DNA of 64,000 nucleotides from NCBI GenBank assembly GCA_037443785.1, contig JBBINR010000013.1, positions 9,525 through 73,524 on the forward strand, read 5' to 3'. Numbering within the stretch: position 1 is the stretch's first letter; the number at the start of each line of letters is the position of its first letter. The notes under the pieces were generated by a model that saw nothing but the letters and a program-made list of their open reading frames with translations, did no database searches and was not told the DNA's origin. This DNA comes from Ignavibacteriales bacterium (lineage in GTDB: Bacteria > Bacteroidota > Ignavibacteria > UBA10030 > UBA8401). A program made the position numbers and the translations under genes. Positions 13,716 to 44,144 of this stretch are shown here, one piece after another.

Positions 13716-15599
13716 ATGTCAAAACAAATCAGTCCTGTTCTTATCGCGGCACAAGAGATTTCAATCCGATTTGGAGAACAGATCGTTTTGAACAATACAT
13801 CAATTAACATTCACCAAACCGACCGGATCGGACTTATTGGAACGAATGGTTCAGGAAAATCGACATTGATAAAAGTTATTGCAGGAATCATCGAACCGGA
13901 TTCCGGAACGATCTCTCGCAAGCGAGAACTTGTCACAGGATATCTTTCACAGGATTTCACACTCGATCATTCAAAATCTGTTTACGAAAATATTATGGAC
14001 GGTGCGCACGACGTTCTGGATATTTTGCGTGAATACGAATCGCTTTCATATGATTCCGACCGTCGGCACGTTCTTGAAGAGCATATTCATCAGTTGGATG
14101 GCTGGAACCTTCAGAACAGAATTGAAACGGCAATGCACTCGCTCAACGTTCCGGATAAAAATCGTGATATCTCGACTTTGTCCGGAGGAGAAAAAAGACG
14201 CGTTGCATTATGTAAGGCAATCATCTCGCGGCCCGACCTTTTGATTCTTGATGAACCGACAAACCATCTCGACACGGAATCTATAGAATGGATGGAAGAA
14301 TTTTTAGAAAAATATTCCGGTGCATGTTTGTTTGTAACGCACGACCGGTATTTTTTGGATTCGATTGCCAATCGAATCATCGAACTTTCCGGCGGAATCT
14401 GTTATCCCCATAACGGTAATTACACCGATTTTTTAATTGACAAAGCCGAACGACAAGCACAATTGGAAAGCGAAGAACGGAAACGAAATAATTTTCTTCG
14501 TCGTGAACTGGAGTGGGTTCGCCGCGGAGCGCGTGCCCGAACGACTAAATCAAAAAGCCGGTTAAAAAATTACTTCGAAATTGCAGACAAAGAAGGTTTC
14601 CATTCTGAAGCAAACGTGGAGTTGGTCATTCCCCCGCCTTCTCCCCTTGGGTCAAAAATTCTGAATTTAAAACATGTCGGAATGGAGCTTGGCGGAAGTG
14701 AATTATTTTCTGATATCGATCTGTTGTTTGATAAGAAAAGAAAATTGGGGATCATCGGCCGCAATGGCGTTGGAAAAACAACGCTTCTTAAAATTATTCT
14801 TGAAGAATTGAAGCCGACGGAAGGGTTCGTTGAACGCGGAGATCGCACCGAGATAAATTACATTGACCAATCGCGCATTGCCCTGAATGACGAAAATACC
14901 GTCATAAAAGAAATCGGCGAAGGGAATGATTGGATCATGTTCGGCGAGGAGCGTTTAACAATCTGGAAATATCTCCGCAAATTTTTATTTACCGATGACC
15001 GTATCAATACAAAAGTGGAAAAACTTTCGGGCGGCGAACGAAGCCGTTTACTTCTTGCAAAGATTTTAAAGAACGGAGGAAATTTTCTCATTCTCGATGA
15101 ACCAACAAACGATCTCGATCTTCCTACTCTTCGCGTATTAGAGGAAGCGCTGGTGGAATTTGACGGATGTGTCATTGCCGTAAGCCATGACCGATATTTT
15201 CTTAATCGAGTATGCAACGGCCTTCTTGCATTCGAAGGAGCCGGAAAAGTTCATTTTAGCGAAGGAAACTACGATTACTACCTCGAAAAGCGAAACGCTC
15301 GTCAAGCAGAACAAATCGAGATTTCCAACGACGAGAAGAAAAAGAATAATCGGAATAGGTCTGAGGTAAAGAAAATGAAATGGAAAGAAGCAAAGGAACT
15401 TGAGACAATTGAAACCGATATCATGCACGCTGAAGAAAATGTCCATCGCATCGAATCTCTTTTTGCTGCAAATGATTTTTATGAAAAATACGGCGAAAAG
15501 ACCGCTGAATTGACCGACGAGCTCAATACAGCAAGAGAAAAAGTTGAGCACTTGTACTCGCGGTGGCACGCATTGGAAGAGTTAAAGAAAGAATTATAA
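13716..15599 (+). CDS. ABC-F family ATPase (Uup/YheS-like), no transmembrane domain
   Basis: 627 aa; two ABC cassettes (GTNGSGKST / GRNGVGKTT Walker A, two LSGGE signatures) and a C-terminal coiled-coil tail. Confidence 0.88.
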   Translation: MSKQISPVLIAAQEISIRFGEQIVLNNTSINIHQTDRIGLIGTNGSGKSTLIKVIAGIIEPDSGTISRKRELVTGYLSQDFTLDHSKSVYENIMDGAHDVLDILREYESLSYDSDRRHVLEEHIHQLDGWNLQNRIETAMHSLNVPDKNRDISTLSGGEKRRVALCKAIISRPDLLILDEPTNHLDTESIEWMEEFLEKYSGACLFVTHDRYFLDSIANRIIELSGGICYPHNGNYTDFLIDKAERQAQLESEERKRNNFLRRELEWVRRGARARTTKSKSRLKNYFEIADKEGFHSEANVELVIPPPSPLGSKILNLKHVGMELGGSELFSDIDLLFDKKRKLGIIGRNGVGKTTLLKIILEELKPTEGFVERGDRTEINYIDQSRIALNDENTVIKEIGEGNDWIMFGEERLTIWKYLRKFLFTDDRINTKVEKLSGGERSRLLLAKILKNGGNFLILDEPTNDLDLPTLRVLEEALVEFDGCVIAVSHDRYFLNRVCNGLLAFEGAGKVHFSEGNYDYYLEKRNARQAEQIEISNDEKKKNNRNRSEVKKMKWKEAKELETIETDIMHAEENVHRIESLFAANDFYEKYGEKTAELTDELNTAREKVEHLYSRWHALEELKKEL

Positions 15600-15606
15600 T
15601 TGAATA

Positions 15607-15654
15607 TAAAAAACGCCGCTGTACCTCCCCAGGTCAGCGGCGTTCGGTTTTTTG
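15607..15654. terminator. bidirectional terminator; copy 1 of a repeated GC-rich hairpin with CCCC loop
   Basis: aacgccgctg-t-acct-cccc-aggt-cagcggcgtt sits between an A-run and a T-run, between the convergent ABC-F (+) and BNR (-) genes. Confidence 0.75.
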
Positions 15655-15684
15655 CTCCAATGCCTTCGAGAACTGAAGCAAATA

Positions 15685-17814
15685 TTATTTAAGCAGCATC
15701 ATACATCGTGTTTCAATATTGTTTCCTGAACGCAATTGATACAAATACATTCCGCTCGAAAGTCCTTTTCCATCAAACGAAGCTTTGTATGATCCTGAAT
15801 TCATCTGTTCATTAACAAGCGTTGCGACTTCTCTCCCAAGAATATCGAACACTTTCAATGAAACAAATCCGTTACGTGAGACTGCGAAATTTATATTCGT
15901 CGTCGGATTAAACGGATTCGGATAGTTTTGCGACAGTTCAAATTTTTCAGGGAGCATATTGGGACTATTCTCTTTAACCTCCGTCGGTCGCGTCGTTTTA
16001 AAAATTCCGTTGAGCGTTCCGGCATAGATTGAAGAAGAAGACATTGTTAAAACTTTTACGTGCTTATCACTCATTCCCGTGCTTACATCAATCCAGTTTG
16101 TTCCACCGCTGGTTGTTTTGAAAACCCCTTTTGAAGATGATGATGCATAAACAGTTCCCGGCATTGGAATAGCGTACGACGTAATATCCCAATCGCTTAA
16201 TCCATCGTTCACTGCAGTCCACGTATTGGCGCTATCGGTCGATTTATAAATTCCCTTCACTAAAGAGGTCTTCATCGTCGCATACATAACGCCGGGACTT
16301 TCAATGGCAACGCGAATTGGAAAACCAAGTTCAACACCAATTGAAATGAACGAGCGGTTTGCCCACGTTACTCCGCCGTCAACACTTTTATTTATCAATG
16401 GGGTTCGCGAATACAGCACACCAGGACTTTCCATGAGTAAATCGTAAACGGTTGTTGTCGTATTTAGCAATCGGCTCCACGTTGCTCCGCCATCAGTTGT
16501 TTTAGAAATTCCTCCATAGGTCATTCCTGCAAGAACAGTGCCCGGTGAAAGTATCAGCAATGTATTCACTTCCATTGTCATCGAAGTGACACTCACATCG
16601 CTCCATGTCGAACCATCGTCAGTCGTTTTGTATACGGTGCCGTTTGTCCCACCAACGTACAATGTTCCGGGACTTTCGATTGCGATTGCATTGATAGATT
16701 TATTTGAAAAATTTTTGCTCAATTCAGTCCACGTTGTTCCATTGTCGTTTGTTTTAAAAACACCATTCTCCCGACTAACGACATACAGTGTTGATTTAGA
16801 TTCATTCCATGCCATATTGGTGATCACGTGCTTGTTAGGACTTACGGGTTGCCATAATGTTCCACCGTTAGTTGTTTTAAAAACTCCCCCAGTGGAGTAT
16901 TCATTCAATCCTATATAAACAATTCCAACATCATCTAATGCAATAGAATTAACTGTTCCTGCAGTTAAACCTGCAATAATCCAACTCCAATTTGCACCGC
17001 CGTCCGTTGTCTTGTAAACGCCATTACCATATGTTCCGGCATATACAATCCCCGAAGCCTCAAATGCAAGACCTGAGATAATAGGTATTTTTGAAAATCC
17101 ATTATTGATTGCAAACCAGTTTGCACCTCCGTCGGTAGTCTTAAACATTCCTTTGGCTGTACCGGCATACATGATAGAGGACGATTCCATCACTATTGAT
17201 GTCGCCATTGTATCTGTCAGACCGTTGTTCATTTGCAGCCATGTTGCTCCGCCGTCAGTGGATTTAAAAACTCCATACGCGCTGTTCGCAACGAACAACG
17301 TATTCGGTGCAACATATAAAAGAGCATTATTTCCCTGATAATTGAATGACAGCGCATTCCAATTGACACCACCATTAGTGGATTTATAAATACTGCCAAA
17401 CGATCCGGCATACATTGTCGTTGCATTTTCAATTGCGATCGACCGGCCGCCAACAGAACTTGCTGAGTGTTTGTTCCATGTAACACCCTTGTTTGTACTT
17501 TTGTACAAATACCCACCCATTGCATATGTTGCGCCGTCAGGTCCCGCCGCAAAGCAATCAAGGGCAAATGTTTTTGTGCTATCCATAATCACTGGATTCC
17601 ATGAAGCTCCTCCATCCGTACTTCTGAATGCGCCCTTTTCTGTTACACCATCAGAATTCACATCGGCATAAATAGTATGCGGCGCAGTAGATTTATCAAT
17701 AAATAATGAACGAATACTGCCGCCTCCGCCTGGTCCGCCAATGGAAGTCCATTGGGCAAATGAAACTGCGGTGATTGTGATAAACAGAAATGCTGTACCA
17801 ATTATTTTGTTCAT
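15685..17814 (-). CDS. secreted BNR/Asp-box repeat beta-propeller protein (Ycf48/GH74/sortilin-like fold) with T9SS C-terminal sorting domain
   Basis: 709 aa. It has a signal peptide (MNKIIGTAFLFITITAVSFA) and more than 10 S/T-x-D-G-G-x-T-W repeats. The C-terminal ~80 aa (ELSQNYPNPFNPTTNINF...LYQLRSGNNIETRCMMLLK) match the Por/T9SS sorting domain. Confidence 0.8.
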   Translation of the reverse strand: MNKIIGTAFLFITITAVSFAQWTSIGGPGGGGSIRSLFIDKSTAPHTIYADVNSDGVTEKGAFRSTDGGASWNPVIMDSTKTFALDCFAAGPDGATYAMGGYLYKSTNKGVTWNKHSASSVGGRSIAIENATTMYAGSFGSIYKSTNGGVNWNALSFNYQGNNALLYVAPNTLFVANSAYGVFKSTDGGATWLQMNNGLTDTMATSIVMESSSIMYAGTAKGMFKTTDGGANWFAINNGFSKIPIISGLAFEASGIVYAGTYGNGVYKTTDGGANWSWIIAGLTAGTVNSIALDDVGIVYIGLNEYSTGGVFKTTNGGTLWQPVSPNKHVITNMAWNESKSTLYVVSRENGVFKTNDNGTTWTELSKNFSNKSINAIAIESPGTLYVGGTNGTVYKTTDDGSTWSDVSVTSMTMEVNTLLILSPGTVLAGMTYGGISKTTDGGATWSRLLNTTTTVYDLLMESPGVLYSRTPLINKSVDGGVTWANRSFISIGVELGFPIRVAIESPGVMYATMKTSLVKGIYKSTDSANTWTAVNDGLSDWDITSYAIPMPGTVYASSSSKGVFKTTSGGTNWIDVSTGMSDKHVKVLTMSSSSIYAGTLNGIFKTTRPTEVKENSPNMLPEKFELSQNYPNPFNPTTNINFAVSRNGFVSLKVFDILGREVATLVNEQMNSGSYKASFDGKGLSSGMYLYQLRSGNNIETRCMMLLK

Positions 17815-17870
17815 TGGTTTCCCCTTTTGTATGATAAATAAATCGATGGATGCTTAGTTCAAGTTATTAA

Positions 17871-17914
17871 CAGGGATAAGTACACTCAATAACGCATATG
17901 CGTCATTTTAAAAT
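17871..17914 (-). promoter_or_regulatory. conserved upstream element with palindrome ACGCATATGCGT, 67-100 bp upstream of the BNR gene start
   Basis: cagggataagtacactcaataacgcatatgcgtcattttaaaat is about 85% identical to the element at 20121..20160, at the same distance from the paralogous start codon. Confidence 0.45.
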
Positions 17915-17918
17915 AAGA

Positions 17919-17952
17919 ACACCTCACAAGGCTGTCCCATATGTGAGGTGTT
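17919..17952 (-). terminator. rho-independent terminator of the upstream BNR paralog
   Basis: Hairpin aacacctcaca-aggctgtcccata-tgtgaggtgtt followed (minus orientation) by a T-rich run. Confidence 0.6.
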
Positions 17953-17968
17953 AGCAAAGCCCAAAAAA

Positions 17969-20062
17969 TTATTTCACCAATATCATCCGTTTTGTTTCCA
18001 CAAAATTTTCAGCTCGAAGTTGATAGAAATATATTCCGCTCGAAAGCCCTATTCCATCAAACGAAACATTGTAGGATCCGGAATTGATATGTTCATTAAC
18101 AAGTGTCGCCACTTCTCTTCCAAGAATATCATACACTTTGAGTGTCACGAATCCATTATGTAACACAGCAAAATTAATATTTGTTGCCGGGTTAAACGGA
18201 TTAGGATAGTTTTGAGAAAGAGAAAATTCCTGCGGAATTATTGAAGGTGAATAATTTTTCACTTCCGTTAATCCACCGCCATTATTTGTTCTTGCAATAA
18301 GCCCTGAAGCACCGACGATGTACCCTATCGAAGATGATGCAAAATAGAGAGCATTCACATCACCAGGCACCGTTGCTTTTGTCCAGCTTGTTCCTCCATC
18401 CGTTGTGCGATACAGCGTTTTATTATTTGTGCATGCAAAACCAATATTCAAATTGACAAAATTAACATCGCGCAATTGTTCAAACCCAATTGATTTTTGC
18501 ACCCACGTATTCCCACCATCAGTTGTTTTGTATGCAACCGGACTGCTTAACGTAACCCAGCCGTTATTTGCATCGATCATGAAAAGTGATGAACTGCTTG
18601 TTGCAAAAGGAGCTATTTTATTCACCCATGTTTTTCCGCCATCGGTAGTTTTATAAATTCCTCCTTTGTCGTCTGTTACAATTCCGTTGGAAGCATCCAT
18701 CATCCAAATTTTTGTGATAGGTCTGGCTGTGCCTACCAAATTTTTCGCCCACGTTGTTCCTCCATCAGTCGTTGCTAAAACATATCCACTGTCAGCGGCA
18801 ATCCAGATTTTGGTAGCATTAACAATTGAAACCGCATAGTTTGTTTTATTTAATCCGGTTGTCATGATATCCCAGCTTAAACCTCCATTCGTTGTCTTCC
18901 ATGCTGAATTAAAACCACTTCCTACTGTCCAACCGTTTTGGCTGTCAATAAATCTAAAATCATACGCCGAAAAACCGACAAACGATGTTAACTTCTTCCA
19001 CACATTTCCGCCGTTGGTTGTTTTTAAAAATTCATTATTCGTGACGATCCAGCCGGTATCTGCATTAAAGAACTGCACGTCCAAACAAGAACCGGTGGTA
19101 ACCGTTCTGTCTTTATTTGTCCATGTCGTTCCGCCATCGGTTGTTGTTGCAATGGTATTATATCCCAAACCCCATCCAAGAGTTGTGGAAAGAAAATATC
19201 CTGTTGATAAAGAGCCAGTCAAAGGTTTTCCAATCGGTGTCCACGTTGTTCCGCCATTCGTTGTTTTGAAATTACTGCCGCCAAATAACCAGCCATTATT
19301 TGCATCAAGAAATTTAAACGTTCCATTGGAAGAGCCGGTAAGAGATTTTGGAGCCCACGTTGCGCCACCATCGGTTGTTGAATATAATCCCAACTCCGAT
19401 GTTAAGAATCCATTCAACGAATCTTTAAAGAATAGATTTGATCCTTGAGTTCCTGCACCGGTTATCGTCATTGTCCAAGAAGTACCGCCATCCGTTGTTT
19501 TCCATATTTTACCACCGCTTCGTTGACCGATCCAAATTTTTTTGGAATTAAGCGCAAACATTGATCCTATATACTGATCAGTTGTAAGAAAGCTAGTTGT
19601 ATCCCACGTTGTACCGCCGTTTATTGTTTTCAGAAAAATATATTTTTTTGTTACAGCATCCGCTGCAGCAATAAATCCTGTGTCAGTCCCGAAAAATTTT
19701 ACTGAATAATTATAGATGTATGGTCCTGTAATTCCTGTGTTAATTTTTGTCCAGGAATCTCCACCGTCGGTCGTTTTAAGCACATCATCGCCAACAACCC
19801 ACCCGGTGGTGGAGTTTACAAATTGAGCAGAAAACATCATACCATCACGCGTTGCCTTTACTGTATCTTTGTTTATCCACGTCGCACCGCCATCCGTTGT
19901 TTTCAGGATAGTTCCAGCTGAGCCAAATACGATTGCAGAATTTTGGTCAAATGCATGAACAACTGAAAGATTTGCACTTGTTGGATACGGATTCTGTGTT
20001 TGCCAGCTTGATTGAGCAAACAAAAAAGAAAACATAAAGCCGAGAATAATCAACTTTTTCAT
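17969..20062 (-). CDS. secreted BNR/Asp-box repeat beta-propeller protein with T9SS C-terminal sorting domain (paralog of 15685..17814)
   Basis: 697 aa. It has a signal peptide and many TTDGGxTW repeats. Its T9SS C-terminal domain (FSLSQNYPNPFNPATNINF...FYQLRAENFVETKRMILVK) is about 70% identical to that of the neighbouring gene. Confidence 0.8.
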   Translation of the reverse strand: MKKLIILGFMFSFLFAQSSWQTQNPYPTSANLSVVHAFDQNSAIVFGSAGTILKTTDGGATWINKDTVKATRDGMMFSAQFVNSTTGWVVGDDVLKTTDGGDSWTKINTGITGPYIYNYSVKFFGTDTGFIAAADAVTKKYIFLKTINGGTTWDTTSFLTTDQYIGSMFALNSKKIWIGQRSGGKIWKTTDGGTSWTMTITGAGTQGSNLFFKDSLNGFLTSELGLYSTTDGGATWAPKSLTGSSNGTFKFLDANNGWLFGGSNFKTTNGGTTWTPIGKPLTGSLSTGYFLSTTLGWGLGYNTIATTTDGGTTWTNKDRTVTTGSCLDVQFFNADTGWIVTNNEFLKTTNGGNVWKKLTSFVGFSAYDFRFIDSQNGWTVGSGFNSAWKTTNGGLSWDIMTTGLNKTNYAVSIVNATKIWIAADSGYVLATTDGGTTWAKNLVGTARPITKIWMMDASNGIVTDDKGGIYKTTDGGKTWVNKIAPFATSSSSLFMIDANNGWVTLSSPVAYKTTDGGNTWVQKSIGFEQLRDVNFVNLNIGFACTNNKTLYRTTDGGTSWTKATVPGDVNALYFASSSIGYIVGASGLIARTNNGGGLTEVKNYSPSIIPQEFSLSQNYPNPFNPATNINFAVLHNGFVTLKVYDILGREVATLVNEHINSGSYNVSFDGIGLSSGIYFYQLRAENFVETKRMILVK

Positions 20063-20120
20063 AAGTCCCCTTTAAGAAGTAATAATGATTTTTTTTAGAG
20101 CTGCATGAAAAATAGAACGA

Positions 20121-20160
20121 CAGGGCAACACTCTCAATAACACATCTGCGTCATTTTAAG
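20121..20160 (-). promoter_or_regulatory. second copy of the conserved upstream element (imperfect palindrome ACACATCTGCGT)
   Basis: agggcaacactctcaataacacatctgcgtcattttaagg lies 66-98 bp upstream of the BNR paralog start. Confidence 0.45.
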
Positions 20161-20185
20161 GGAAGAAAATTGAACGTGGAAAAAA

Positions 20186-20836
20186 TTATTTCAGAAGACC
20201 TTGCTTGATCGCTTTTGCGACTGCTTCGCTGCGGGAATGGACGTGGAGCTTTTCATAAATGTTGCGGATATGATTACGAACTGTTTCCGGTGAGATGAAA
20301 ATTTTCTCTGCAATCTGCTTATAGTTTAATCCTTGCACAAGAAGTCCCAAAACTTCCTGCTCACGCAGCGAAAGAATTTCCGATTCGGAATCTTTTTGTT
20401 CTGCGCGAGTTTTAAATGCTTCCAACACACGGCGCGCTACAAACGGCGTCATGGAGGTACCGCCATTGAGCGTTTCTTCGACCGCTTCTAAGATTTTCTG
20501 CCCCGAAGTTTGCTTTAACAGATATCCATCAGCCCCGGCAAAAATTGCCTGCATAATCTTTTCATCGTCGGTAAAATTCGTCAACATGATGATTCGAGGT
20601 GGAGTTGACCGTTTCTTCAATTCACGTACGCCGTCAATTCCTGAACCGTCGGGCAGTCCTATATCCATCAATACAACATCCGTCGATGTCATATTCTTCA
20701 GAACATCAGAGACCGTCTCATATACTCCGGCAAGTTCAAACCCTTTGGCAGATTGAACGACCTCGCTGACAATCTCACGGTAAGACGGATGATCTTCAAC
20801 GATGACTACACGAATATTTTTTCTTTTCGGTGGCAT
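20186..20836 (-). CDS. two-component response regulator, NarL/FixJ (LuxR-type HTH) family
   Basis: 216 aa; receiver domain (VVIVEDHP...D58-like MDIGLPDGSG) and a C-terminal LuxR HTH (LSLREQEVLGLLVQGLNYKQIAEKIFISPETVRNHIRNIYEKL). Confidence 0.9.
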   Translation of the reverse strand: MPPKRKNIRVVIVEDHPSYREIVSEVVQSAKGFELAGVYETVSDVLKNMTSTDVVLMDIGLPDGSGIDGVRELKKRSTPPRIIMLTNFTDDEKIMQAIFAGADGYLLKQTSGQKILEAVEETLNGGTSMTPFVARRVLEAFKTRAEQKDSESEILSLREQEVLGLLVQGLNYKQIAEKIFISPETVRNHIRNIYEKLHVHSRSEAVAKAIKQGLLK

Positions 20837-20875
20837 AGAGTGTCTATAGCAATCTTAGAGTAATTGGTTTTAGAA

Positions 20876-23800
20876 TCAATGACGCAATTGCGCCATTTTA
20901 ACTTGCACTGAAATTGATGTCCCTTTATTTTTCATTGAATCAATATGGATGACAGCACCAATTTTTTCAGCACGCGCATTCATATTTTTCAATCCGTGTC
21001 CTCCTATCGTCCTTGTCCTGGCGCCGGATCGCTCTATCCCCTTTCCATCGTCGCGAATGGTAAGATAAAAAACATCATCCTCGAACCATGAAAGGAGTTC
21101 GACCGACGATGCATCCGAATGTTTGATAATATTGTTTATTGCTTCCTTAAAAATGAGATAAATATTTTTCCGAACTTCCTCCGCTATCATAATTTCCGGA
21201 GGAATGATGCAAAATGCTAAATGGCATTCCAGTGAATGGTCATGACACCATTGAACCGAAAGATCGCCAATCCTGTCGACAAGATTTTTTAATGAATCAT
21301 GGCTCGGCGAAAGCGACCATACAACTTCTTCCATCGATTGTTTCGCATCGGATGACATCGCCGATAATTTATTTATTGCGTTTTCTAAATCGTTTCGACG
21401 TTGATTTGAACGATGCTGTATGGTTTCAGCATACAATGAAATACTATTCAGTGTCGAAGCAACGTCATCATGCAGATCGCGCGCGATTTTTTCCCGGACA
21501 CGCTGCCGCTCATCTGTCAATGCGCGTTCATGTTCAAGTTCTACGATCCGTTTTTTTAGTTTTCGGCGCGACACATACCAGGAGCCTGTAAAAATACCGC
21601 TAATAAAACCAAAGGCAGAAAATAATTTAAACCAGACCGTTGCCCACCACGGCGGTGAGATGATGATTTTAATTGATGTGCCTTGTTCATTCCAAATGCC
21701 GTCGTTGTTCGATCCTTTGACGTGAAAAACATATTCGCCGGGATCAATATTTGTATACCGCACAAACCGCTTGCTGCCCGCTTGCACCCATTCTTTATCG
21801 AGTCCTTTCAACATATACGCAAAACAATTGTTGCCGGGCGCAACGAGAGATAACGAAGAAAGTTCAAATGAGAAAAAGTTTTGATTGTAGGAAAGGACAA
21901 TGACCGAGTCGCGAAGCAGGGGTGAATAATCTTCATCGAAAATTTTAAATTGCGTAATGGCAATCGGCGGGATAAATTTGCTGTCCTGAATGCTGTCAGG
22001 AAAGAATTCCATCATTCCGTTATGAGCGCCAAAATAAAATTTACCGCTTCTTCCGCGATGGTACGCATTCTGATTAAATTCATTATTGATCGTGCCATCG
22101 TTTCGAAGATACGTGCGGAATGTTTTCTCCCGTGGAGAAAATTTCGACAAACCTTTTGCCGTACTCAGCCATAAATTATGTTTTTTGTCTTCAAGTATTC
22201 CGTATATCATATCCGTTTTCAAACCATCGGATTCCTTATAAGGAATAAAATGAAGGGAATCACCATCCTGCACTACTTTGTCGATCCCTCCGGCAAACGT
22301 TCCAACCCACAACGTGTTATCATGAGACTGATAAATACAGGAAACGACATTGTTGCTTATCGCATTTTTATCCGACGCGCTGCCTTGATATACTTTATAA
22401 GAATTATTTTTCGTGTCAAACCGGATGAGACCGCCGCCGTTCGTTCCAATCCAAAGATATCCGTCATTCGTTTTACACATCGACATTACCGTCTCTAAAT
22501 TTCTTTGGATGAAATTTGAATCGCTAAAAAATCGTTCAATTCGCCGTGATCCGTAGTTGTACTTCGCTAATCCAATTGATGTTCCCCACCAGATATTTCT
22601 TCGATCGTCAGGCAGCAACGAGTAAATGAAATTTCCTCCGAAAACATTTCCGGCCGACGAATCAAATATTAATTTCAGATTGTTCCCCGTACCCCTTGAA
22701 TAATAAAGTCCGTTCCGCGTCCCTATCCACAATGTGCCGCTGCTATCTTCCGACAAACACACCGGCCGCACAGCAGATATTTTCCGAAAACCTGAACGTT
22801 CATTTTCTCTCCGATATAGACCTGTATGCGTTCCAACCCAAAGCCGCCCGAGACGATCTTCCAGCATCGTCCACACGCTTCCATCTCCCAATGAATGGGG
22901 ATCGCTTGCATCATAGTGAGAGGTAATAAATTTTTTATTGTTTGGAATTACTTTGTTCAACCCGTCTGTGGTTCCAATCCATAAAATACTTTCGTCATCT
23001 TCGTAAATCGAAAGAATATTGTTATTACTAATGCTTGCAGGATTTAACGGATCATGAGCGTATTGTACCGCATCATAAATTTGCGGGCTACCATCGCGGG
23101 AATAATGTATCGTAAGCCGGAACACACCGATATCGCTTCCCATCCATGCATTTCCTTTTGAATCGAAAAAGACTATTCTTGACAGCCCTTTTTTTAGAAT
23201 CCGACGGGCGCGTTGTGACGTAGAAACCGCCCTTAGTTTTTTATCTTTGGAATCGTAGTAACACAACCCTAAACGTTCGTCCCCCAACCAAATGACGTTG
23301 TGCGGGTCTTTGCAAAGCCATGTTATAACGTGGTGTTGGATTTTTTTTTGTAATCGGGATTCAAATTTTATTTCTGTAAAGAATCCGGTCTCCGGGTTTA
23401 CTGTGAAAACTTTTTTTGTTGTCGTTACCCAAATGAGCGTATCATACTCTGTGCACACATCCATTATTTGGTCTTCACCATGGACTCCGCCGGGGATAAA
23501 ATATTGGTGATGTGTTTTGGTAATCGGAGAATATTTGACAAGGCTTCCGGTAAAGCTAACGAAGAGATTCCCCTTACTATCTTCACAGAATCCGCGGGCA
23601 TTCCCAAGGGCCGGCAATGGTATTTGTGCCAAGTTTGAAAAATGTTCAACGCGAAAATCTTGAGGATCGACGATATCAAGATCACTTGTTTGATACCGGA
23701 CGATGATTTTCCCTCCTTTTGAACAACTCAATTGCCAGACATTATTGGCGGATAACGATAATGAATCGCCTGTCCGATGTTTCAAAGTTTGAAAAGTTTT

Positions 23801-23983
23801 TCCGTCATATCTATTCAAACCATCGAGCGTTCCAACCCACAGGAAACCATGTTGGTCGCGGGTGATATCAAATGCAGAATTTTGAGAAAGTCCGTCTTCA
23901 ATCGTCAAATGTTCAAAACGTACTTCCTGCGCAAAGAGGAAGAATTGAAATCCAAAAAGAAATAAGACAAATAAGAATCGCAT
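20876..23983 (-). CDS. sensor histidine kinase with periplasmic two-component-regulator beta-propeller and Y_Y_Y domains, HisKA_3 and HATPase_c
   Basis: The ORF track extends to 24136; the real start is the ATG at 23983 (signal/TM MRFLFVLFLFGFQFFLFAQE). Propeller repeats (WVGT/WIGT) are followed by the Y_Y_Y region (YVFHVKGSNNDGIWNE), one TM helix, the H-box RDLHDDVASTLNSISL and a C-terminal ATPase. It lies 40 bp upstream of the NarL-type regulator. Confidence 0.88.
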   Translation of the reverse strand: MRFLFVLFLFGFQFFLFAQEVRFEHLTIEDGLSQNSAFDITRDQHGFLWVGTLDGLNRYDGKTFQTLKHRTGDSLSLSANNVWQLSCSKGGKIIVRYQTSDLDIVDPQDFRVEHFSNLAQIPLPALGNARGFCEDSKGNLFVSFTGSLVKYSPITKTHHQYFIPGGVHGEDQIMDVCTEYDTLIWVTTTKKVFTVNPETGFFTEIKFESRLQKKIQHHVITWLCKDPHNVIWLGDERLGLCYYDSKDKKLRAVSTSQRARRILKKGLSRIVFFDSKGNAWMGSDIGVFRLTIHYSRDGSPQIYDAVQYAHDPLNPASISNNNILSIYEDDESILWIGTTDGLNKVIPNNKKFITSHYDASDPHSLGDGSVWTMLEDRLGRLWVGTHTGLYRRENERSGFRKISAVRPVCLSEDSSGTLWIGTRNGLYYSRGTGNNLKLIFDSSAGNVFGGNFIYSLLPDDRRNIWWGTSIGLAKYNYGSRRIERFFSDSNFIQRNLETVMSMCKTNDGYLWIGTNGGGLIRFDTKNNSYKVYQGSASDKNAISNNVVSCIYQSHDNTLWVGTFAGGIDKVVQDGDSLHFIPYKESDGLKTDMIYGILEDKKHNLWLSTAKGLSKFSPREKTFRTYLRNDGTINNEFNQNAYHRGRSGKFYFGAHNGMMEFFPDSIQDSKFIPPIAITQFKIFDEDYSPLLRDSVIVLSYNQNFFSFELSSLSLVAPGNNCFAYMLKGLDKEWVQAGSKRFVRYTNIDPGEYVFHVKGSNNDGIWNEQGTSIKIIISPPWWATVWFKLFSAFGFISGIFTGSWYVSRRKLKKRIVELEHERALTDERQRVREKIARDLHDDVASTLNSISLYAETIQHRSNQRRNDLENAINKLSAMSSDAKQSMEEVVWSLSPSHDSLKNLVDRIGDLSVQWCHDHSLECHLAFCIIPPEIMIAEEVRKNIYLIFKEAINNIIKHSDASSVELLSWFEDDVFYLTIRDDGKGIERSGARTRTIGGHGLKNMNARAEKIGAVIHIDSMKNKGTSISVQVKMAQLRH

Positions 23984-24040
23984 TTGAGAAAATACAACAG
24001 GAAGAAAGGAGAAGCAAGAATGGAATGTGAAGTACGTTTC

Positions 24041-24078
24041 AAATAAAACGCCGTTGAACCTCCCCAGGTCAACGGCGC
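24041..24078. repeat. copy 2 of the GC-rich CCCC-loop hairpin (terminator-like in the minus orientation), 65 bp upstream of the sensor-kinase start
   Basis: aacgccgttg-a-acct-cccc-aggt-caacggcg differs from copy 1 by a compensatory C-G to T-A pair in the stem. Confidence 0.6.
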
Positions 24079-24396
24079 TTGTAGCTATTGTTTCAACCGC
24101 CTTCAAGTTGAAACAAAGTGGTACGTTACACTTCAAAATCTCATCGTGCCAAGTTATCTTATCAATAACTCGTTCGGGTCATTTTCATTTGAAGAACGTA
24201 TAAGCTCTTCTTCGGTGTGGTAATCTGCAAAAACTCTCCGAACAATTCCACTCCGCTAAAAATTATTTTTTTCTAATGACAAACCGCTGAATTCCTGGAA
24301 TGATGACAAATTTCTTGCATAAATCGGTCAGGTTCTGTAATATCTTCAACGATCCCAGCATATTAACTAACGTTATATATTTAAGGAGTTGTATCC

Positions 24397-35448: not shown

Positions 35449-36318
35449 ATGGATCAACAACTTCTACACAAAATTCAAGAACTTGTCGGACAAGGCGAGA
35501 AATTAATTCCTGAAGGCGGGTTGGAATTTTCCGGCTATAATGCAAAGATGCAAAGCCAATATTTATTATGGCGGAAAAACTGTCTTGATACCCTTTCAAA
35601 AGCAGGTGAAAAAATTACTCCGTTGCGCGAGAAAGTAACGAAAGATGAAAACGGAGCGTATTTCTATCAGAATTCAGCGCAATTAATCGTCGACGTGTTG
35701 AAGCAATCCTTACCATTGGTAGAAGCGGAAGTAAAGAAAAACTCAAAACCCGTCGGTGCAAATCTAAAACCTTCATTTGAAGCAGCAAAGGAACCAGCTA
35801 TGGAACCCGCAAAAGCTCAACCGAAGCCCGCACCACAACCGAAAGTTGATCCCACTCCTGCACCTGAACCAAAAGTTCAACCGGCATCTGCTCCAGTTCA
35901 AAAACAACCGGCAGCATCGCCATCGGCAAGCAGTAAAGAAGTTTTTGTGTTATCATCGTCCGAATCTGAGCTGCAAAACCAGTTAACCTCTTTTCTGAAG
36001 GAAATTGGAATTGAATCGATTGCATTCCAGCGCGGCACCGCGATTGATGCGATCGTTTCTTTCCTTGATAAACATCCAAATATCAAATACGCGTACTACC
36101 TCTTCAACGCTGAAGATATGAACAACGCGATGTTTGAACTCGGCTATCTCGCCGGAAAAATCGGGACAGGAAGAATTTGCTGCGTCCATAAAAAAGAAGA
36201 TGCTCCGCCAAAAGGCATTCCTGGAATTACTTATAAAGAGATCGTTGTGAAGTTGGAAGAGATCAGTTTTGGACTTATTAAGGACCTGAAAGCGGCGGGA
36301 TATACTGTAACGATCTGA
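35449..36318 (+). CDS. TIR-like domain protein (COG4271/PF10137-type) with an unknown N-terminal domain and a Pro/Ala-rich linker
   Basis: 289 aa. The C-terminal ~125 aa read VFVLSSSESELQNQLTSFL...AYYLFNAEDM...FELGYLAGKIGTGRICCV..PKGIPGITYKE, matching the TIR-like predicted nucleotide-binding domain pattern. The linker is EPAKAQPKPAPQPKVDPTPAPEPKVQPASAP. It sits 35 and 33 bp from the flanking mqn genes. Confidence 0.7.
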   Translation: MDQQLLHKIQELVGQGEKLIPEGGLEFSGYNAKMQSQYLLWRKNCLDTLSKAGEKITPLREKVTKDENGAYFYQNSAQLIVDVLKQSLPLVEAEVKKNSKPVGANLKPSFEAAKEPAMEPAKAQPKPAPQPKVDPTPAPEPKVQPASAPVQKQPAASPSASSKEVFVLSSSESELQNQLTSFLKEIGIESIAFQRGTAIDAIVSFLDKHPNIKYAYYLFNAEDMNNAMFELGYLAGKIGTGRICCVHKKEDAPPKGIPGITYKEIVVKLEEISFGLIKDLKAAGYTVTI

Positions 36319-42721: not shown

Positions 42722-44098
42722 ATGAAAAAACATTTTGTCGTTATTCTTTTACTTGCCGCAACGGTGCTTACAGCGCAAGAAAAAGTTCAAGCTATCCATG
42801 GGGGAACAGCTCGGACTGCAGCACTCGGCGGCGGGCCAAATAATCCGTACATAAAAGATTATACGGATGTGTTTACCAATCCGGCATACGCCTTAACCTA
42901 CAGCGATTTTTTATACAGTGATATCGGATATGCATTTGCAGCGTATTCAGCGTCCGGTCAATATATTGGCTATACATTGGGCCTCAATAATCTTGCAGTT
43001 GGAATTGCCATCGGCAAAAGAGAGGGACCCATGTTTGCAGAACAATCTTTGCTCCCAGGCTCATTTTATGGCTCTTCCGATAATATGACAGCAGATGCAC
43101 AAGCGAATACATTGCCAGGAAGTATAATTCGCGAACCTCGTTCACCGATTCAATTGTATGGTGCGTTTAAACTCGGCGCAATGACAATCGGAGCTTCGAT
43201 CTATCGTTCCGGCTGGAGCCAAGTAAATGATGGAACCGGCTTAGGTCTTACAACAAAACAAAAGTTAGATGCCGGACAAGGACAAACTGGTATAAAAGCG
43301 GGTGTGTTAATAGAATTAAGCCAGCAAATTACTATCGACGGCGCAGTGATGTTCAGAAATAATTCTTCAACAATTGAACTTACTGACTCAGACACTGCCG
43401 CACACACCATCGCAAACCCAAGTTCACAAAAATATGATGCATCCGGAAGTGAATTTGCAGTCAATGCAAGAGCGATAGTGAAGTTGAGTGATAAACTTGA
43501 AGTCGTACCGCAAGCCCGTTTTGCTACATTCGGCTATCAACCTGAATTTTCCCAAAACCCTTCCGTCCCTGCTCCCGCAAACACCAAACCGAATGATTAC
43601 GGAAGAAGTGAATTTGAAGTTGGTGTTGGTATTAATTCAAAATTTACCGGCGGGATGGTAACGTTCGGATTGAGTATTCAAAGCATTTCATTGAAAAACG
43701 ATGTCACTACTCTTTCCGGTACAACATTCCAGACAACAAAAAATACCGCTTCGTGGCTCGATCTTCCAAAAATTAATGTTGGAGCGGAATATCAAGTTGC
43801 CAGTTGGTTGACCGGCCGCCTTGGCTATTTTAATCGTCTATCGTCCATGTCAACGAAAACTGAACCGCCATCTCCAGCAACAACAACCGAAGTAACAATC
43901 GGTCAAGAAAATGGTTATACGCCGAACTTTGGATTGAACTCTGCGAGCCAGCAGCTTTCGCTCGGTCTGGGCATTTCAATTGATCGAGTTGCAATCGACG
44001 GATATATGGGTGAAAGATTTTTAGCCGCAGGTCCATACATTCTGAGTGGAAATGGTCAGGACATGTTTTGTATCATGTCCATGAGTGTTAAATTTTAA
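42722..44098 (+). CDS. hypothetical outer-membrane beta-barrel protein (FadL/PorV-like topology)
   Basis: 458 aa; signal peptide, abundant amphipathic beta-strands, terminal residue F. Confidence 0.55.
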   Translation: MKKHFVVILLLAATVLTAQEKVQAIHGGTARTAALGGGPNNPYIKDYTDVFTNPAYALTYSDFLYSDIGYAFAAYSASGQYIGYTLGLNNLAVGIAIGKREGPMFAEQSLLPGSFYGSSDNMTADAQANTLPGSIIREPRSPIQLYGAFKLGAMTIGASIYRSGWSQVNDGTGLGLTTKQKLDAGQGQTGIKAGVLIELSQQITIDGAVMFRNNSSTIELTDSDTAAHTIANPSSQKYDASGSEFAVNARAIVKLSDKLEVVPQARFATFGYQPEFSQNPSVPAPANTKPNDYGRSEFEVGVGINSKFTGGMVTFGLSIQSISLKNDVTTLSGTTFQTTKNTASWLDLPKINVGAEYQVASWLTGRLGYFNRLSSMSTKTEPPSPATTTEVTIGQENGYTPNFGLNSASQQLSLGLGISIDRVAIDGYMGERFLAAGPYILSGNGQDMFCIMSMSVKF

Positions 44099-44111
44099 GA
44101 ATACAACGATT

Positions 44112-44144
44112 AACGGCGCTCAGATTTGAGCGCCGTTTTTTTTT
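44112..44144 (+). terminator. rho-independent terminator
   Basis: aacggcgctc-agattt-gagcgccgtt followed by a T9 run. Confidence 0.75.

What the first reader, a model, noticed from the sequence alone, without database searches (positions are those of the whole stretch)
15685..23983. Propeller-sensor two-component system directly upstream of tandem paralogous BNR/Asp-box T9SS-secreted beta-propellers
All four genes are on the minus strand in series. First comes a histidine kinase with a large periplasmic two-component-regulator-propeller plus Y_Y_Y sensor (the sensor type that detects glycans in Bacteroidota hybrid systems) and its NarL-type regulator. These are followed by two duplicated secreted proteins of about 700 aa packed with S/TxDGGxTW Asp-box repeats, each ending in a T9SS sorting domain. 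No SusC/SusD or recognisable glycoside-hydrolase gene accompanies them, so this is not a canonical PUL. The BNR proteins could be GH74-like glycanases, lectin-like binders or Ycf48-like scaffolds. The arrangement looks like a self-contained sense-and-secrete module.
Basis: partly seen in the sequence, partly recalled or inferred. Interest (0 to 1): 0.55.

Follow-up and report, generated by a model that had tools for sequence, protein, structure and literature searches.

The report
Sensor-controlled pair of secreted propeller proteins
A membrane sensor of the kind gut bacteria use to detect sugar chains, its partner regulator, and two secreted propeller-shaped proteins form a self-contained unit wired together by a shared 20-base DNA switch; this gives a first handle on a very large protein family of unknown function.

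Summary
Four minus-strand genes at 15685-23983 encode a histidine kinase with a BT4663-type double-propeller plus Y_Y_Y sensor, a NarL/GerE regulator, and two ~700-aa Asp-box double propellers with T9SS type-A sorting domains. Housekeeping genes flank them; the window has no SusC/SusD or glycoside-hydrolase gene.

New evidence for a regulon: a 20-bp palindrome, AATGAC-N8-GT(C/T)ATT, lies upstream of both propeller genes, the regulator (inside the kinase's last codons) and the kinase. A -10-like hexamer starts 21 nt after it, 22 nt at one distant locus. It recurs in this position in eight related loci and almost nowhere else in 1.29 Mb.

Correction: the two propellers are not recent duplicates (24% identity; sorting domains 72%). 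One is a tandem Ycf48-like protein. The other has a GH74-like fold but lacks the GH74 catalytic Asp motif. Relatives swap cargo among Asp-box propeller subfamilies.

Extra: a covarying two-hairpin terminator element follows the last cargo gene. A second copy sits in the kinase leader, just downstream of an operator.

Verdict: a real, conserved sense-and-secrete unit and a new variant of known kinds. Signal and cargo function remain unknown; non-catalytic surface binding is my leading guess.

The parts
20876..23983 (-). Sensor histidine kinase, 1035 aa. It has an N-terminal signal/TM segment, a periplasmic double beta-propeller (Reg_prop repeats) plus Y_Y_Y domain, a second TM segment (WWATVWFKLFSAFGFISGIFTGSWYV), and a HisKA_3 (H-box ARDLHDD) plus HATPase_c core.
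   Evidence: Pfam. PDB by sequence: BT4663 sensor domain 4A2L E=1.4e-83, BT3049 3V9F 3.2e-66, kinase core DesK/VraS type. Orthologues are 59, 45, 40 and 31% identical.
20186..20836 (-). NarL/LuxR-type response regulator, 216 aa (receiver domain with the acceptor Asp in VVLMDIGLPDGSG, plus a GerE helix-turn-helix).
   Evidence: Pfam Response_reg 4.2e-21 and GerE 6.3e-20. NCBIfam NarL/MadR/MctR models hit but stay below their equivalog cut-offs. It lies 39 bp downstream of the kinase.
17969..20062 (-). Cargo 1 ('BNR2'), 697 aa: signal peptide (…LFA|QSS), two tandem Ycf48-like 7-bladed Asp-box propellers (13 Asp-boxes) and a T9SS type-A C-terminal sorting domain.
   Evidence: Pfam PSII_BNR 1.1e-42 and Por_Secre_tail 1.5e-09. 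Family profile against PDB: Ycf48 2e-41, GH74 1e-17. AlphaFold model pLDDT 87.8. Foldseek: Ycf48 TM(target) 0.72-0.75, rmsd 3.6 for each half.
15685..17814 (-). Cargo 2 ('BNR1'), 709 aa: signal peptide (…SFA|QW), a GH74-like double 7-bladed Asp-box propeller (13 Asp-boxes) and a T9SS type-A sorting domain.
   Evidence: Pfam and NCBIfam. Family profile against PDB: GH74 2.7e-50, Ycf48 7.5e-21. Model pLDDT 87.6. Foldseek: GH74 TM 0.60-0.66 and 16-19% identity, while unrelated tandem WD40 propellers reach only ~0.4.
20136..20155 (-). Operator O(BNR2), AATGACGCAGATGTGTTATT. Its centre is 83.5 bp upstream of the ATG. A -10-like TATTTT lies at 20109-20114, exactly 21 nt after the palindrome.
17888..17907 (-). 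Operator O(BNR1), AATGACGCATATGCGTTATT (9 of 10 palindromic). Its centre is 83.5 bp upstream of the ATG. A -10-like TAACTT lies at 17861-17866.
20878..20897 (-). Operator O(RR), AATGGCGCAATTGCGTCATT, embedded in the last codons of the kinase gene (…K-M-A-Q-L-R-H-stop). Its centre is 51.5 bp upstream of the regulator's ATG. A -10-like AAGATT lies at 20851-20856.
   Evidence: It is conserved in L001, L002, L005, L006 and L007. In L003 the half-sites are kept while the encoded peptide changes (MTQTGH), which points to a constraint on the DNA.
24164..24183 (-). Operator O(HK), AATGACCCGAACGAGTTATT, 190 bp upstream of the kinase ATG. A -10-like GAGATT lies at 24137-24142. This site was found only in this window; the orthologous loci checked lack it.
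17918..17952 (-). Intrinsic-terminator-like hairpin (11-bp stem AACACCUCACA/UGUGAGGUGUU) followed by CUUAUUUU, directly after cargo 1. It would separate the two cargo transcription units.
   Evidence: Sequence; RNAfold -19.5 kcal/mol for the 76-nt stretch 17900-17975.
15602..15684 (-). Copy A of a conserved two-hairpin 3' element. P1 has a variable, covarying stem with a GAAGGC(G/A) loop. P2 is CGCCG-N4-CCU-GGGG-AGG-U-N4-CGGCG followed by a U-run, and acts as the terminator of cargo 2.
   Evidence: Covariance model score 81.3 bits, E=1.2e-16. Covariation counts.
24037..24120 (-). Copy B of the same two-hairpin element. It sits in the kinase leader, starting about 10 nt after the predicted start site of the O(HK) promoter and ending 54 nt before the kinase ATG.
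   Evidence: Covariance model score 81.2 bits, E=1.2e-16; sequence; RNAfold of the leader.

Best explanation
This is an autoregulated two-component regulon whose only visible targets are its own genes and two T9SS-secreted propeller proteins.

Shown:
- The kinase has a periplasmic sensor homologous to the glycan-binding sensors of Bacteroides hybrid two-component systems, joined to a DesK/NarX-type (HisKA_3) kinase core.
- The partner is a NarL/GerE regulator.
- A 20-bp palindrome, AATGAC-N8-GT(C/T)ATT, lies upstream of each cargo gene, of the regulator and, in this genome, of the kinase. A -10-like hexamer starts 21 nt after it (22 nt at one distant locus).
- This arrangement is conserved across related loci.

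Inferred:
- The phosphorylated regulator dimer binds the palindrome centred at about -43, takes the place of a -35 element as LuxR-type class II activators do, and switches on the cargo genes and its own gene (positive feedback).
- The signal is an extracytoplasmic oligo- or polysaccharide.
- The cargo proteins are exported by Sec, then carried across the outer membrane by the T9SS and displayed on or released from the surface.
- One cargo is a tandem Ycf48-like propeller. The other has a GH74-like clamshell fold without the canonical catalytic Asp motif. I therefore favour non-catalytic binding of a polymer or surface over hydrolysis.
- Each cargo gene has its own operator and its own terminator, and relatives carry one or the other. 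The window thus combines two alternative cargo units.
For: - Domains.
- Both catalytic motifs of the phosphorelay are present in the sequence (H-box ARDLHDD, N/G boxes, acceptor Asp).
- Synteny kinase-regulator-propeller(T9SS) is kept in L001, L002, L003/L004, L005, L006 and L007, with cargo identity 79% down to 38%.
- Operator in the window: 3 exact matches, all on the gene strand and in the three upstream regions. A fourth lies at the kinase 3' end.
- Operator elsewhere: in 1.29 Mb of fetched DNA, the palindrome with at most 1 mismatch occurs at 15 module positions and at only one other place.
- The operator centre is 75.5-86.5 bp from the cargo ATG in 8 loci.
- A -10-like hexamer (TAnnn[T/A] before cargo genes, nAnATT before regulator genes) starts 21 nt after the palindrome at 15 of the 16 sites aligned and 22 nt after it at the L027 cargo site.
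- A distant module in L027 (kinase ~30% identical) has the same palindrome before its regulator and its Ycf48-like cargo.
- In L003 the half-sites inside the kinase's last codons are kept although the peptide changes.
- Among distant homologous kinases with an adjacent NarL-type regulator and enough contig, 11 of 30 are followed by a T9SS-sorted gene.
- Cargo folds.
- In both family alignments the invariant columns are only Asp-box Gly/Trp and sorting-domain residues.
Against: - There are no expression data, no mapped start sites and no binding assay.
- The generic sigma-70 scan did not pick these promoters and was not enriched over shuffles.
- The ligand is unknown. BT4663-type sensors are known for glycans, but homology does not fix specificity.
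- The operator upstream of the kinase is absent from the orthologous loci checked, so autoregulation of the kinase is not general.
- BNR1 keeps one Asp (D38, in SDGVT) in an insertion at the place of the GH74 N-terminal catalytic loop in its three closest relatives, so a divergent active site is not excluded.
- The C-terminal GH74 catalytic residue could not be aligned.
- T9SS machinery genes are not in the window.
Confidence: 0.6

Rival explanations
1. This is a minimal glycan-degrading unit. BNR1, and perhaps BNR2, is a true but divergent endo-glycanase of GH74 ancestry. Its oligosaccharide products are the ligand of the sensor, as in Bacteroides PULs but without SusC/SusD.
For: - The BNR1 family profile matches GH74 enzymes at 1e-41 to 2.7e-50, full length for 6P2M and 6P2L.
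- The model superposes on GH74 structures with TM 0.60-0.66, far better than on other tandem propellers.
- The sensor is of the BT4663 type.
- BNR1 blade 1 has an insertion with a conserved Asp, and blade 8 has charged residues where other blades have Gly/Thr/Ser.
Against: - The GH74 catalytic Asp (YAR[AT]DIGG, identified from 2CN2 against its D70A mutant 2CN3, and from 1SQJ) aligns to a non-acidic position in the family consensus (YAGTxxGG).
- Neither protein has a D-[IVL]-G-G motif.
- The acidic residue in blade 8 is Gly in the 73%-identical orthologue.
- No invariant acidic residue exists outside the Asp-boxes.
- The NCBIfam glycosylhydrolase model F510_1955 scores below its cut-off (149 against 175).
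- GH74 enzymes have 4+5 Asp-boxes, not 13 (PMC2716378).
- No transporter or downstream sugar-catabolic gene is nearby.
Confidence: 0.2
2. The unit has nothing to do with glycans. The propellers are protein-binding, adhesion or surface-coat components, comparable to Ycf48 binding D1, Sortilin binding peptides, or the Streptomyces dispase autolysis-inducing protein. The sensor responds to some other envelope or environmental cue.
For: - BNR2 is closest to Ycf48, a protein-binding scaffold.
- Both family profiles also hit the dispase autolysis-inducing protein 5FZP (1e-22 and 4e-10) and Sortilin.
- Cargo of related kinase-regulator units includes non-enzymatic CarboxypepD_reg/Ig-type T9SS proteins.
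- PorZ, a T9SS surface component, has the same overall build of two propellers plus a sorting domain (TM 0.59).
Against: - The sensor's closest solved relatives all belong to glycan-sensing hybrid systems.
- Most characterised Asp-box propellers are carbohydrate-active (PMC2716378).
- No direct evidence favours either reading.
Confidence: 0.2
3. The gene adjacency has no regulatory meaning. The palindrome is a generic repeat or terminator-like element, and the two-component system controls genes elsewhere.
For: - The shuffle control for the motif in the window alone is weak: mean 0.76 matches expected with at most 1 mismatch, and 3 of 100 shuffles reach 3.
- Only 64 kb of the genome can be inspected, so other targets cannot be excluded.
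Against: - All sites are on the gene strand, in upstream regions, at a conserved distance from the ATG, and followed by a -10-like hexamer at a fixed 21-nt spacing.
- The motif is conserved in eight further loci and is practically absent from 1.29 Mb of other DNA.
- The AT-rich palindrome does not fold as a G+C-rich terminator.
Confidence: 0.05

Closest known systems
Bacteroides hybrid two-component systems (BT4663, BT3049, BT4673)
   Same: The periplasmic sensor is a double beta-propeller (Reg_prop) plus Y_Y_Y domain between two TM segments. By sequence, 4A2L matches at E=1.4e-83 and 3V9F at 3.2e-66.
   Different: This system is not hybrid: the kinase polypeptide has no receiver and no AraC domain. 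Its kinase core is HisKA_3 (DesK/NarX type), and the output is a separate NarL/GerE regulator. There is no adjacent SusC/SusD or enzyme set. The ligand is unknown.
ReeS of Clostridium perfringens (PMC3762733)
   Same: ReeS is a BT4663-like kinase with RE/YYY sensor domains whose deletion changes expression of secreted sialidase genes, which are Asp-box propeller proteins.
   Different: ReeS is an orphan kinase in a Gram-positive organism. Its regulator and operator are unknown, its targets are unlinked GH33 enzymes, and there is no T9SS.
GH74 xyloglucanases (2CN2, 1SQJ, 5FKQ, 6P2M)
   Same: BNR1 shares the tandem 7+7-bladed Asp-box clamshell: profile E down to 2.7e-50 and TM 0.60-0.66.
   Different: The canonical N-terminal catalytic Asp motif is not present at the aligned position, and no DIGG motif exists. 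BNR1 has 13 Asp-boxes against 4+5 in GH74. It carries a T9SS sorting domain instead of CBMs.
Ycf48/HCF136 photosystem II assembly factor
   Same: Each half of BNR2 is a Ycf48-like 7-bladed propeller: Pfam PSII_BNR 146.8 bits, profile E=2e-41, TM 0.72-0.75.
   Different: BNR2 has two propellers in tandem, a Sec signal and a T9SS sorting domain, and no photosystem genes are in the window. The NCBIfam Ycf48 equivalog model scores below its cut-off (161 against 326).
LuxR/NarL-family class II activation and HisKA_3-NarL pairs (DesK-DesR, LiaS-LiaR); recalled from general knowledge, not tested here
   Same: A 20-bp inverted repeat with a GAC…GTC core sits where a -35 element would be, centred at about -43. 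The kinase is HisKA_3 and the regulator has a GerE output domain.
   Different: The operator sequence is specific to this clade. One site is embedded in the coding end of the kinase gene. The sensor domain is quite unlike those of DesK or LiaS.
PorZ (5M11), T9SS surface component
   Same: The overall build is two beta-propellers followed by a T9SS C-terminal domain; TM 0.59 to the BNR2 model.
   Different: PorZ propellers are of the Reg_prop type, not the Asp-box type. The NCBIfam PorZ model hits the kinase's sensor, not the cargo. There is no evidence that the cargo belongs to the secretion machinery.

Membership tests
Classical two-component system (HisKA_3 kinase + NarL/GerE regulator) | Kinase with H-box, N and G boxes; separate regulator with an acceptor Asp and a GerE HTH; adjacent genes | tested here: met
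   Pfam HisKA_3, HATPase_c, Response_reg and GerE are above cut-off. The motifs ARDLHDD, NNIIKH, DDGKG and LMDIGLPD are visible. The gap between the genes is 39 bp.
Bacteroides-type hybrid two-component system (HTCS) | Sensor, kinase, receiver and AraC-type DNA-binding domain fused in one polypeptide | tested here: not met
   The 1035-aa kinase has no Response_reg or AraC hit. Only the periplasmic sensor is homologous.
Polysaccharide utilisation locus (PUL) | An adjacent SusC/SusD-like pair, usually with glycoside hydrolases | tested here: not met
   The neighbours and the rest of the 64-kb window were scanned with Pfam, and none was found.
T9SS type-A cargo | N-terminal Sec signal peptide plus a C-terminal sorting domain (PF18962/TIGR04183) | tested here: met
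   Por_Secre_tail scores 40.8 and 38.4 bits (cut-off 27). TIGR04183 scores 42.5 and 45.9 bits (cut-off 23). Hydrophobic N-termini ending in A|Q are seen. The model shows a beta-sandwich at the C-terminus.
T9SS type-A cargo | T9SS machinery present in the same genome, and export dependent on it | not testable with these tools
   Only 64 kb of the genome is available, and no T9SS component gene lies in it.
GH74 | Two tandem 7-bladed Asp-box propellers forming a cleft | tested here: met
   For BNR1, Foldseek gives TM 0.60-0.66 to 15 or more GH74 entries, against ~0.4 to other tandem propellers. For BNR2 the match is not specific: 0.55 to GH74 and 0.6 to WD40 tandems.
GH74 | N-terminal catalytic Asp in the YAR(T/A)DIGG loop of blade 1 | tested here: not met
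   2CN2 (ADIGG) against its D70A mutant 2CN3 (AAIGG), together with 1SQJ (TDIGG), fixes the column. The family consensus there is YAGTxxGG. BNR1 has YADVNSDGVTEKG, with a 5-residue insertion.
GH74 | Second catalytic Asp in the C-terminal propeller | tested here: inconclusive
   No local alignment covered that region of 1SQJ/2EBS or 2CN2. Neither protein has a D-[IVL]-G-G motif. Blade 8 reads SRENG in BNR1, SRGIG in P0122 and SRDKG in P0123.
Ycf48/HCF136 | A single 7-bladed propeller reaching the curated equivalog score; a partner of photosystem II D1 | tested here: not met
   NCBIfam PRK13684 scores 161 and 85 bits against a cut-off of 326. The proteins have tandem propellers plus a T9SS sorting domain. 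The Pfam domain-level hit is met (146.8 bits), so the fold family fits but orthology does not.
F510_1955 family glycosylhydrolase (NCBIfam NF045728) | Whole-protein score of at least 175 bits | tested here: not met
   149.4 bits for BNR1, spread over 5 repeat stretches, and 67.7 bits for BNR2.
Rfam RNA families (for the two-hairpin 3' element) | A match reaching a family's gathering score | tested here: not met
   The only hit is ohsC_RNA, 27.9 bits against a gathering score of 50, E=0.66, on the opposite strand of the terminator.

The most novel reading that the evidence does not exclude
The conserved two-hairpin element is more than a terminator. It would be a new structured RNA tied to T9SS-secreted Asp-box propeller genes. 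It forms the 3' end of the cargo mRNA, and in this genome a second copy sits right behind a regulator-dependent promoter in the kinase leader. There it would give either a ~90-nt regulator-induced small RNA homologous to the cargo 3' UTR, or an attenuator that gates kinase expression. Either would add an RNA layer to the feedback loop. Together with the swappable cargo, this would define a portable 'operator - propeller cargo - RNA element' cassette used by a clade of Ignavibacteria/Bacteroidota-like bacteria.
Probability: 0.2. Interest if true: 0.65.

Novelty: new variant of a known kind. Interest (0 to 1): 0.42.

Why it matters
'YCF48-related' or 'photosystem II assembly factor-like' proteins with T9SS sorting domains are very numerous in non-photosynthetic Ignavibacteria, Bacteroidota, Calditrichia and their relatives. 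More than 5,600 and 6,600 database clusters matched the two proteins at E<=1e-10. I found no paper on their function.

Here two of them are placed under a dedicated sensor of a well-studied, ligand-binding type, with a defined operator. That turns 'what are these propellers for?' into concrete experiments: find the ligand of the sensor, then test binding of the same compound by the cargo.

The locus also shows that the glycan-type double-propeller sensor, best known from hybrid systems next to PULs, is reused in classical kinase-regulator pairs. In about a third of the informative distant loci, such a pair is followed by a T9SS-sorted gene.

Tried and rejected
The closest named genome is 'Bacteroidetes bacterium DBS2-5.bin33'.
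- A first genome scan with the kinase alone found nothing.
- The generic promoter/terminator scan was not enriched and missed the promoters proposed here.
- Rfam gave nothing for the region.
- Several literature searches returned nothing on this system: Ycf48+T9SS; Ycf48+BNR+Bacteroidetes; Y_Y_Y+HisKA_3; 'two-component regulator propeller'. Two GH74 papers gave no catalytic-residue numbering, and Arnal et al. 2019 is not held. I identified the N-terminal catalytic Asp instead from the wild-type and mutant PDB sequences.
- A repeat of the single-sequence PDB search at a loose threshold added nothing.
- I considered that leader copy B of the RNA element is a relic of a deleted third cargo gene. 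No coding remnant is visible between the operator and the hairpins, but this cannot be excluded.
- I considered a recent tandem duplication of the cargo and rejected it (24% identity, different subfamilies).
- I considered that the palindrome at the kinase 3' end is conserved only because of the peptide. L003 argues against this.

Full report
**1. What is there**

Four genes lie head to tail on the minus strand:
- a 1035-aa histidine kinase (20876-23983);
- a 216-aa response regulator (20186-20836);
- a 697-aa propeller protein (17969-20062, here BNR2);
- a 709-aa propeller protein (15685-17814, here BNR1).

The gaps between them are 39, 123 and 154 bp.

These are Reg_prop repeats, Y_Y_Y, HisKA_3 and HATPase_c in the kinase; a receiver and GerE in the regulator; and PSII_BNR, Sortilin-Vps10, BNR and the T9SS type-A sorting domain in both cargo proteins.

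The kinase's periplasmic part is clearly homologous to the solved sensor domains of the Bacteroides hybrid systems BT4663 (E=1.4e-83) and BT3049. Its cytoplasmic part is of the DesK/VraS type. It is not a hybrid kinase.

The unit is bounded by strand switches. An ABC-F ATPase converges on it, and acetyl-CoA synthetase diverges from it. The rest of the window is housekeeping: acetate kinase, UvrD, Ogt, DPP-IV, Dus, isocitrate/isopropylmalate dehydrogenase, menaquinone and arginine biosynthesis, and 2-oxoacid:ferredoxin oxidoreductase. There is no SusC/SusD and no glycoside hydrolase.

**2. The two cargo proteins are not duplicates**

BLASTP gives 32% identity, much of it from the repeats. The propeller parts align globally at 24%, while the 99-residue sorting domains are 72% identical.

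Their database neighbourhoods differ.
- BNR2's relatives are 'YCF48-related' T9SS proteins of Ignavibacteria, Kapabacteria, Marinimicrobia and Bacteroidota.
- BNR1's relatives carry Sortilin-Vps10/DUF6242_C signatures and extend to Acidobacteria and Deltaproteobacteria.

Family profiles against PDB sequences separate them cleanly.
- BNR2 matches Ycf48 at 2e-41 and GH74 at 1e-17.
- BNR1 matches GH74 at 2.7e-50 and Ycf48 at 7.5e-21.

The AlphaFold models are confident (pLDDT 87.8 and 87.6). Each shows 14 blades in two propellers plus a C-terminal beta-sandwich.
- The BNR1 model superposes on GH74 enzymes with TM 0.60-0.66 and 16-19% identity, but on unrelated tandem propellers with only ~0.4.
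- BNR2 matches GH74 (0.55) no better than WD40 tandems (~0.6) or PorZ (0.59). Each of its halves matches Ycf48 at TM 0.72-0.75 and rmsd 3.6 Å.

**3. Is BNR1 a GH74 enzyme?**

The N-terminal catalytic Asp of GH74 can be located without the literature. The PDB sequence of wild-type Xgh74A (2CN2) reads YARADIGG, its D70A mutant (2CN3) reads YARAAIGG, and OXG-RCBH (1SQJ) reads YARTDIGG.

In the profile alignment this Asp falls on a non-acidic position of the BNR1 family consensus, YAGTxxGG. BNR1 itself has a five-residue insertion there, YADVNSDGVTEKG. Only D38 of that insertion is kept in its three closest relatives.

The equivalent loop of the second propeller reads SRENG, SRGIG and SRDKG in the three orthologues, so no acid is conserved there. 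Neither protein contains a D-[IVL]-G-G motif.

The invariant columns of both family alignments are only Asp-box Gly/Trp and sorting-domain residues. GH74 enzymes have 4+5 Asp-boxes (PMC2716378), whereas these proteins have 13.

I therefore file BNR1 as GH74-like in fold but not as a GH74 member. A divergent active site is not excluded.

**4. Synteny**

Contigs encoding relatives of either cargo protein all show the order kinase, regulator, propeller with T9SS sorting domain:

| Locus | Cargo type | Identity to window protein |
|---|---|---|
| L005 | BNR2-like | 79% |
| L001 | BNR2-like | 58% |
| L002 | BNR2-like | 45% |
| L003/L004 | BNR2-like | 38% |
| L006 (= L008, 'Bacteroidetes bacterium DBS2-5.bin33') | BNR1-like | 73% |
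| L007 | BNR1-like | 52% |

The cargo position is variable. It holds BNR2-like alone (L003), BNR1-like alone (L007), or BNR2-like or BNR1-like followed by a third, shorter DUF6242/Sortilin-type propeller (L001, L006). The window carries BNR2 followed by BNR1. Acetyl-CoA synthetase is a conserved neighbour in four loci, which I take to be ordinary synteny.

In the species-representative genome collection only one close kinase orthologue exists (59% identity). The other 79 loci are 27-36% identical paralogue-level relatives, from Ignavibacteria, Calditrichia, Bacteroidota, Chloroflexota and others. Thirty of these kinases have an adjacent NarL-type regulator and at least 1.5 kb of contig beyond it. 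In 11 of those 30 the next gene carries a T9SS sorting domain, and 3 of the 11 are Asp-box propellers. The other cargo proteins are CarboxypepD_reg/Ig-type or have no recognised domain. So 'propeller sensor, NarL regulator, T9SS cargo' is a recurrent arrangement.

**5. The operator (new)**

The upstream regions of BNR2 and BNR1 share AAAATGACGCA-ATG-GTTATTGAG. The pattern AATGAC-N8-GTTATT has three exact matches in the window. All are on the gene strand, and they lie upstream of BNR1, BNR2 and the kinase.

Read as the palindrome AATGAC-N8-GTCATT with at most one mismatch, a fourth site appears in the last codons of the kinase gene, 51.5 bp before the regulator's ATG.

Across 1.29 Mb of fetched DNA the motif occurs:
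- upstream of the cargo gene in L001, L002, L003, L005, L006 and L007;
- at the kinase end or before the regulator in L003 and L043;
- before both the regulator and the Ycf48-like cargo of a distant module in L027;
- at one unrelated place.

With two mismatches, the site at the kinase end is present in all close orthologues as AATAGCGCAGTTGCGTCATT, which encodes …MAQLRH-stop. In L003 the peptide is MTQTGH-stop but the half-sites are intact. This argues that the DNA, not only the peptide, is constrained.

The centre of the palindrome is 75.5-86.5 bp from the cargo ATG in eight loci. At 15 of the 16 sites aligned a -10-like hexamer begins exactly 21 nt after the palindrome; at the L027 cargo site it begins 22 nt after. 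The hexamer is TAnnn(T/A) before cargo genes and nAnATT before regulator genes.

This geometry puts the palindrome centre at about -43. That is where LuxR/NarL-type class II activators replace a -35 element (general knowledge, not tested here). There is no mapped start site.

**6. Transcription units**

BNR2 is followed by a strong hairpin plus a U-run (17918-17952). BNR1 then has its own operator and promoter. The two cargo genes therefore look like separate, equally wired units. This fits the view that the window joins two alternative cargo units seen singly in relatives.

**7. A conserved structured 3' element (new, partly followed up)**

The terminator after BNR1 has the apical sequence GACCTGGGGAGGT, and this recurs exactly once more in the window, between the O(HK) operator and the kinase ATG.

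The same hairpin follows the cargo gene in L002, L003 and L007. A pattern scan of the metagenome collection found eleven matches. Six are true hairpins, and every one lies 50-100 nt downstream of an Asp-box/T9SS-sorted gene. The other five are coding coincidences in GC-rich DNA.

The element has two hairpins.
- P1 has a variable sequence with a loop that is usually GAAGGCG.
- P2 has an invariant lower stem CGCCG/CGGCG, a covarying middle, a bulged U, the CCU/AGG pairs, a GGGG loop, and then a U-run.

On eight distinct sequences, 94% of cells pair, against 42-56% when the partners are slid. Nine pairs show compensatory changes.

A covariance model finds only these copies in 1.28 Mb, and Rfam has no such family.

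Copy B in the kinase leader would start about 10 nt after the start site predicted from the O(HK) promoter and end 54 nt before the kinase ATG. It could be a regulator-induced ~90-nt RNA, an attenuator of kinase expression, or a relic of a lost cargo unit. The orthologous loci have neither this copy nor the O(HK) site.

**8. Mechanism, with status of each step**

Shown:
- domain make-up;
- intact phosphorelay motifs;
- conserved linkage;
- the conserved operator with fixed promoter geometry at cargo and regulator genes;
- Sec signals and T9SS sorting domains;
- the folds.

Inferred:
- the phosphorylated regulator activates the cargo genes and its own gene;
- the signal is an extracytoplasmic glycan, by analogy with BT4663-type sensors and with ReeS of C. 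perfringens, a BT4663-like kinase that controls sialidase genes (PMC3762733);
- the cargo is exported by the T9SS and acts at the cell surface.

The weakest step is what the cargo does. I favour non-catalytic binding (about 50%) over a divergent glycanase (about 20%) or a glycan-unrelated binding or coat role (about 20-30%).

**9. Novelty and verdict**

Every component belongs to a known kind. The new points are:
- the combination of an HTCS-type sensor in a classical HisKA_3/NarL pair that drives T9SS propeller cargo;
- the defined operator, one copy of which overlaps the kinase's last codons;
- the swappable cargo;
- the associated RNA element.

I found no paper on the function of the T9SS 'YCF48-related' proteins. 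The finding is real and conserved, but it is not a surprise in kind: a new variant of a known kind, of moderate interest.

Noticed in passing
window 15602-15684 (-) and 24037-24120 (-); L002 5697-5762, L003 3073-3153, L007 9702-9783, L088-L091, L096: A conserved, covarying two-hairpin RNA element ending in an intrinsic terminator always follows an Asp-box/T9SS-sorted gene. In the window a second copy lies in the kinase leader, right after an operator. Rfam has no matching family.
   Followed up: partly
window 20878-20897 (kinase codons …KMAQLRH-stop): The operator before the regulator gene is encoded within the last seven codons of the kinase. In L003 the half-sites persist while the peptide changes.
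   Followed up: yes
window 23984-24136: The ORF list extends the kinase to a TTG at 24136. That extension runs through the terminator hairpin of copy B and has no counterpart in orthologues, so the ATG at 23983 is the likely start. There is no Shine-Dalgarno sequence before it, unlike the strong AGGGGA before both cargo genes. A TTGCTT-17-TATTTT pair ends 5 nt before the ATG, which hints at a leaderless or near-leaderless kinase mRNA.
   Followed up: no
L001 11220-12344; L006 12179-13478: In relatives, the gene after the first cargo is a third kind of Asp-box propeller (DUF6242/Sortilin-type, about 350-450 aa). In L006 its sorting domain is in a different frame, which may be a frameshift or an assembly error.
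   Followed up: partly
L003 3178-7206; L007 9803-13856: In two relatives the unit is followed by a small HMA (heavy-metal-associated) gene on the other strand. After that comes a ~1190-aa protein combining a PSII_BNR-like stretch, FG-GAP repeats and a Ser/Thr protein kinase domain.
   Followed up: no
window 35449-36318 (+): A 289-aa protein with a CAP12/Pycsar-type TIR effector domain sits between two menaquinone (futalosine-pathway) radical-SAM genes. It may be a solitary defence-related gene.
   Followed up: no
window 44000-48500: A low-GC island (0.34-0.36, against ~0.41 elsewhere) holds an IS1595-family transposase (47486-48427), a DUF3800 protein (46182-47117), a methyltransferase (44290-44919) and two ORFs without Pfam hits. 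It is probably a mobile insertion.
   Followed up: no
window 15581-15649 (+): A weak Rfam hit to ohsC_RNA (27.9 bits against a gathering score of 50, E=0.66) lies on the opposite strand of the BNR1 terminator hairpin. I take it to be chance.
   Followed up: yes
window 15685-17814 and 17969-20062, N-termini: Both cargo signal peptides end in A|Q (SFA|QW, LFA|QSS). This is the pattern described as the Bacteroidetes 'Q-rule' for signal peptidase I substrates (title and abstract of PMC5837995, as listed).
   Followed up: no
window 54424-55884 (+): A second, unrelated histidine kinase (HAMP + HATPase_c) lies elsewhere in the window. No operator-like palindrome is near it.
   Followed up: no
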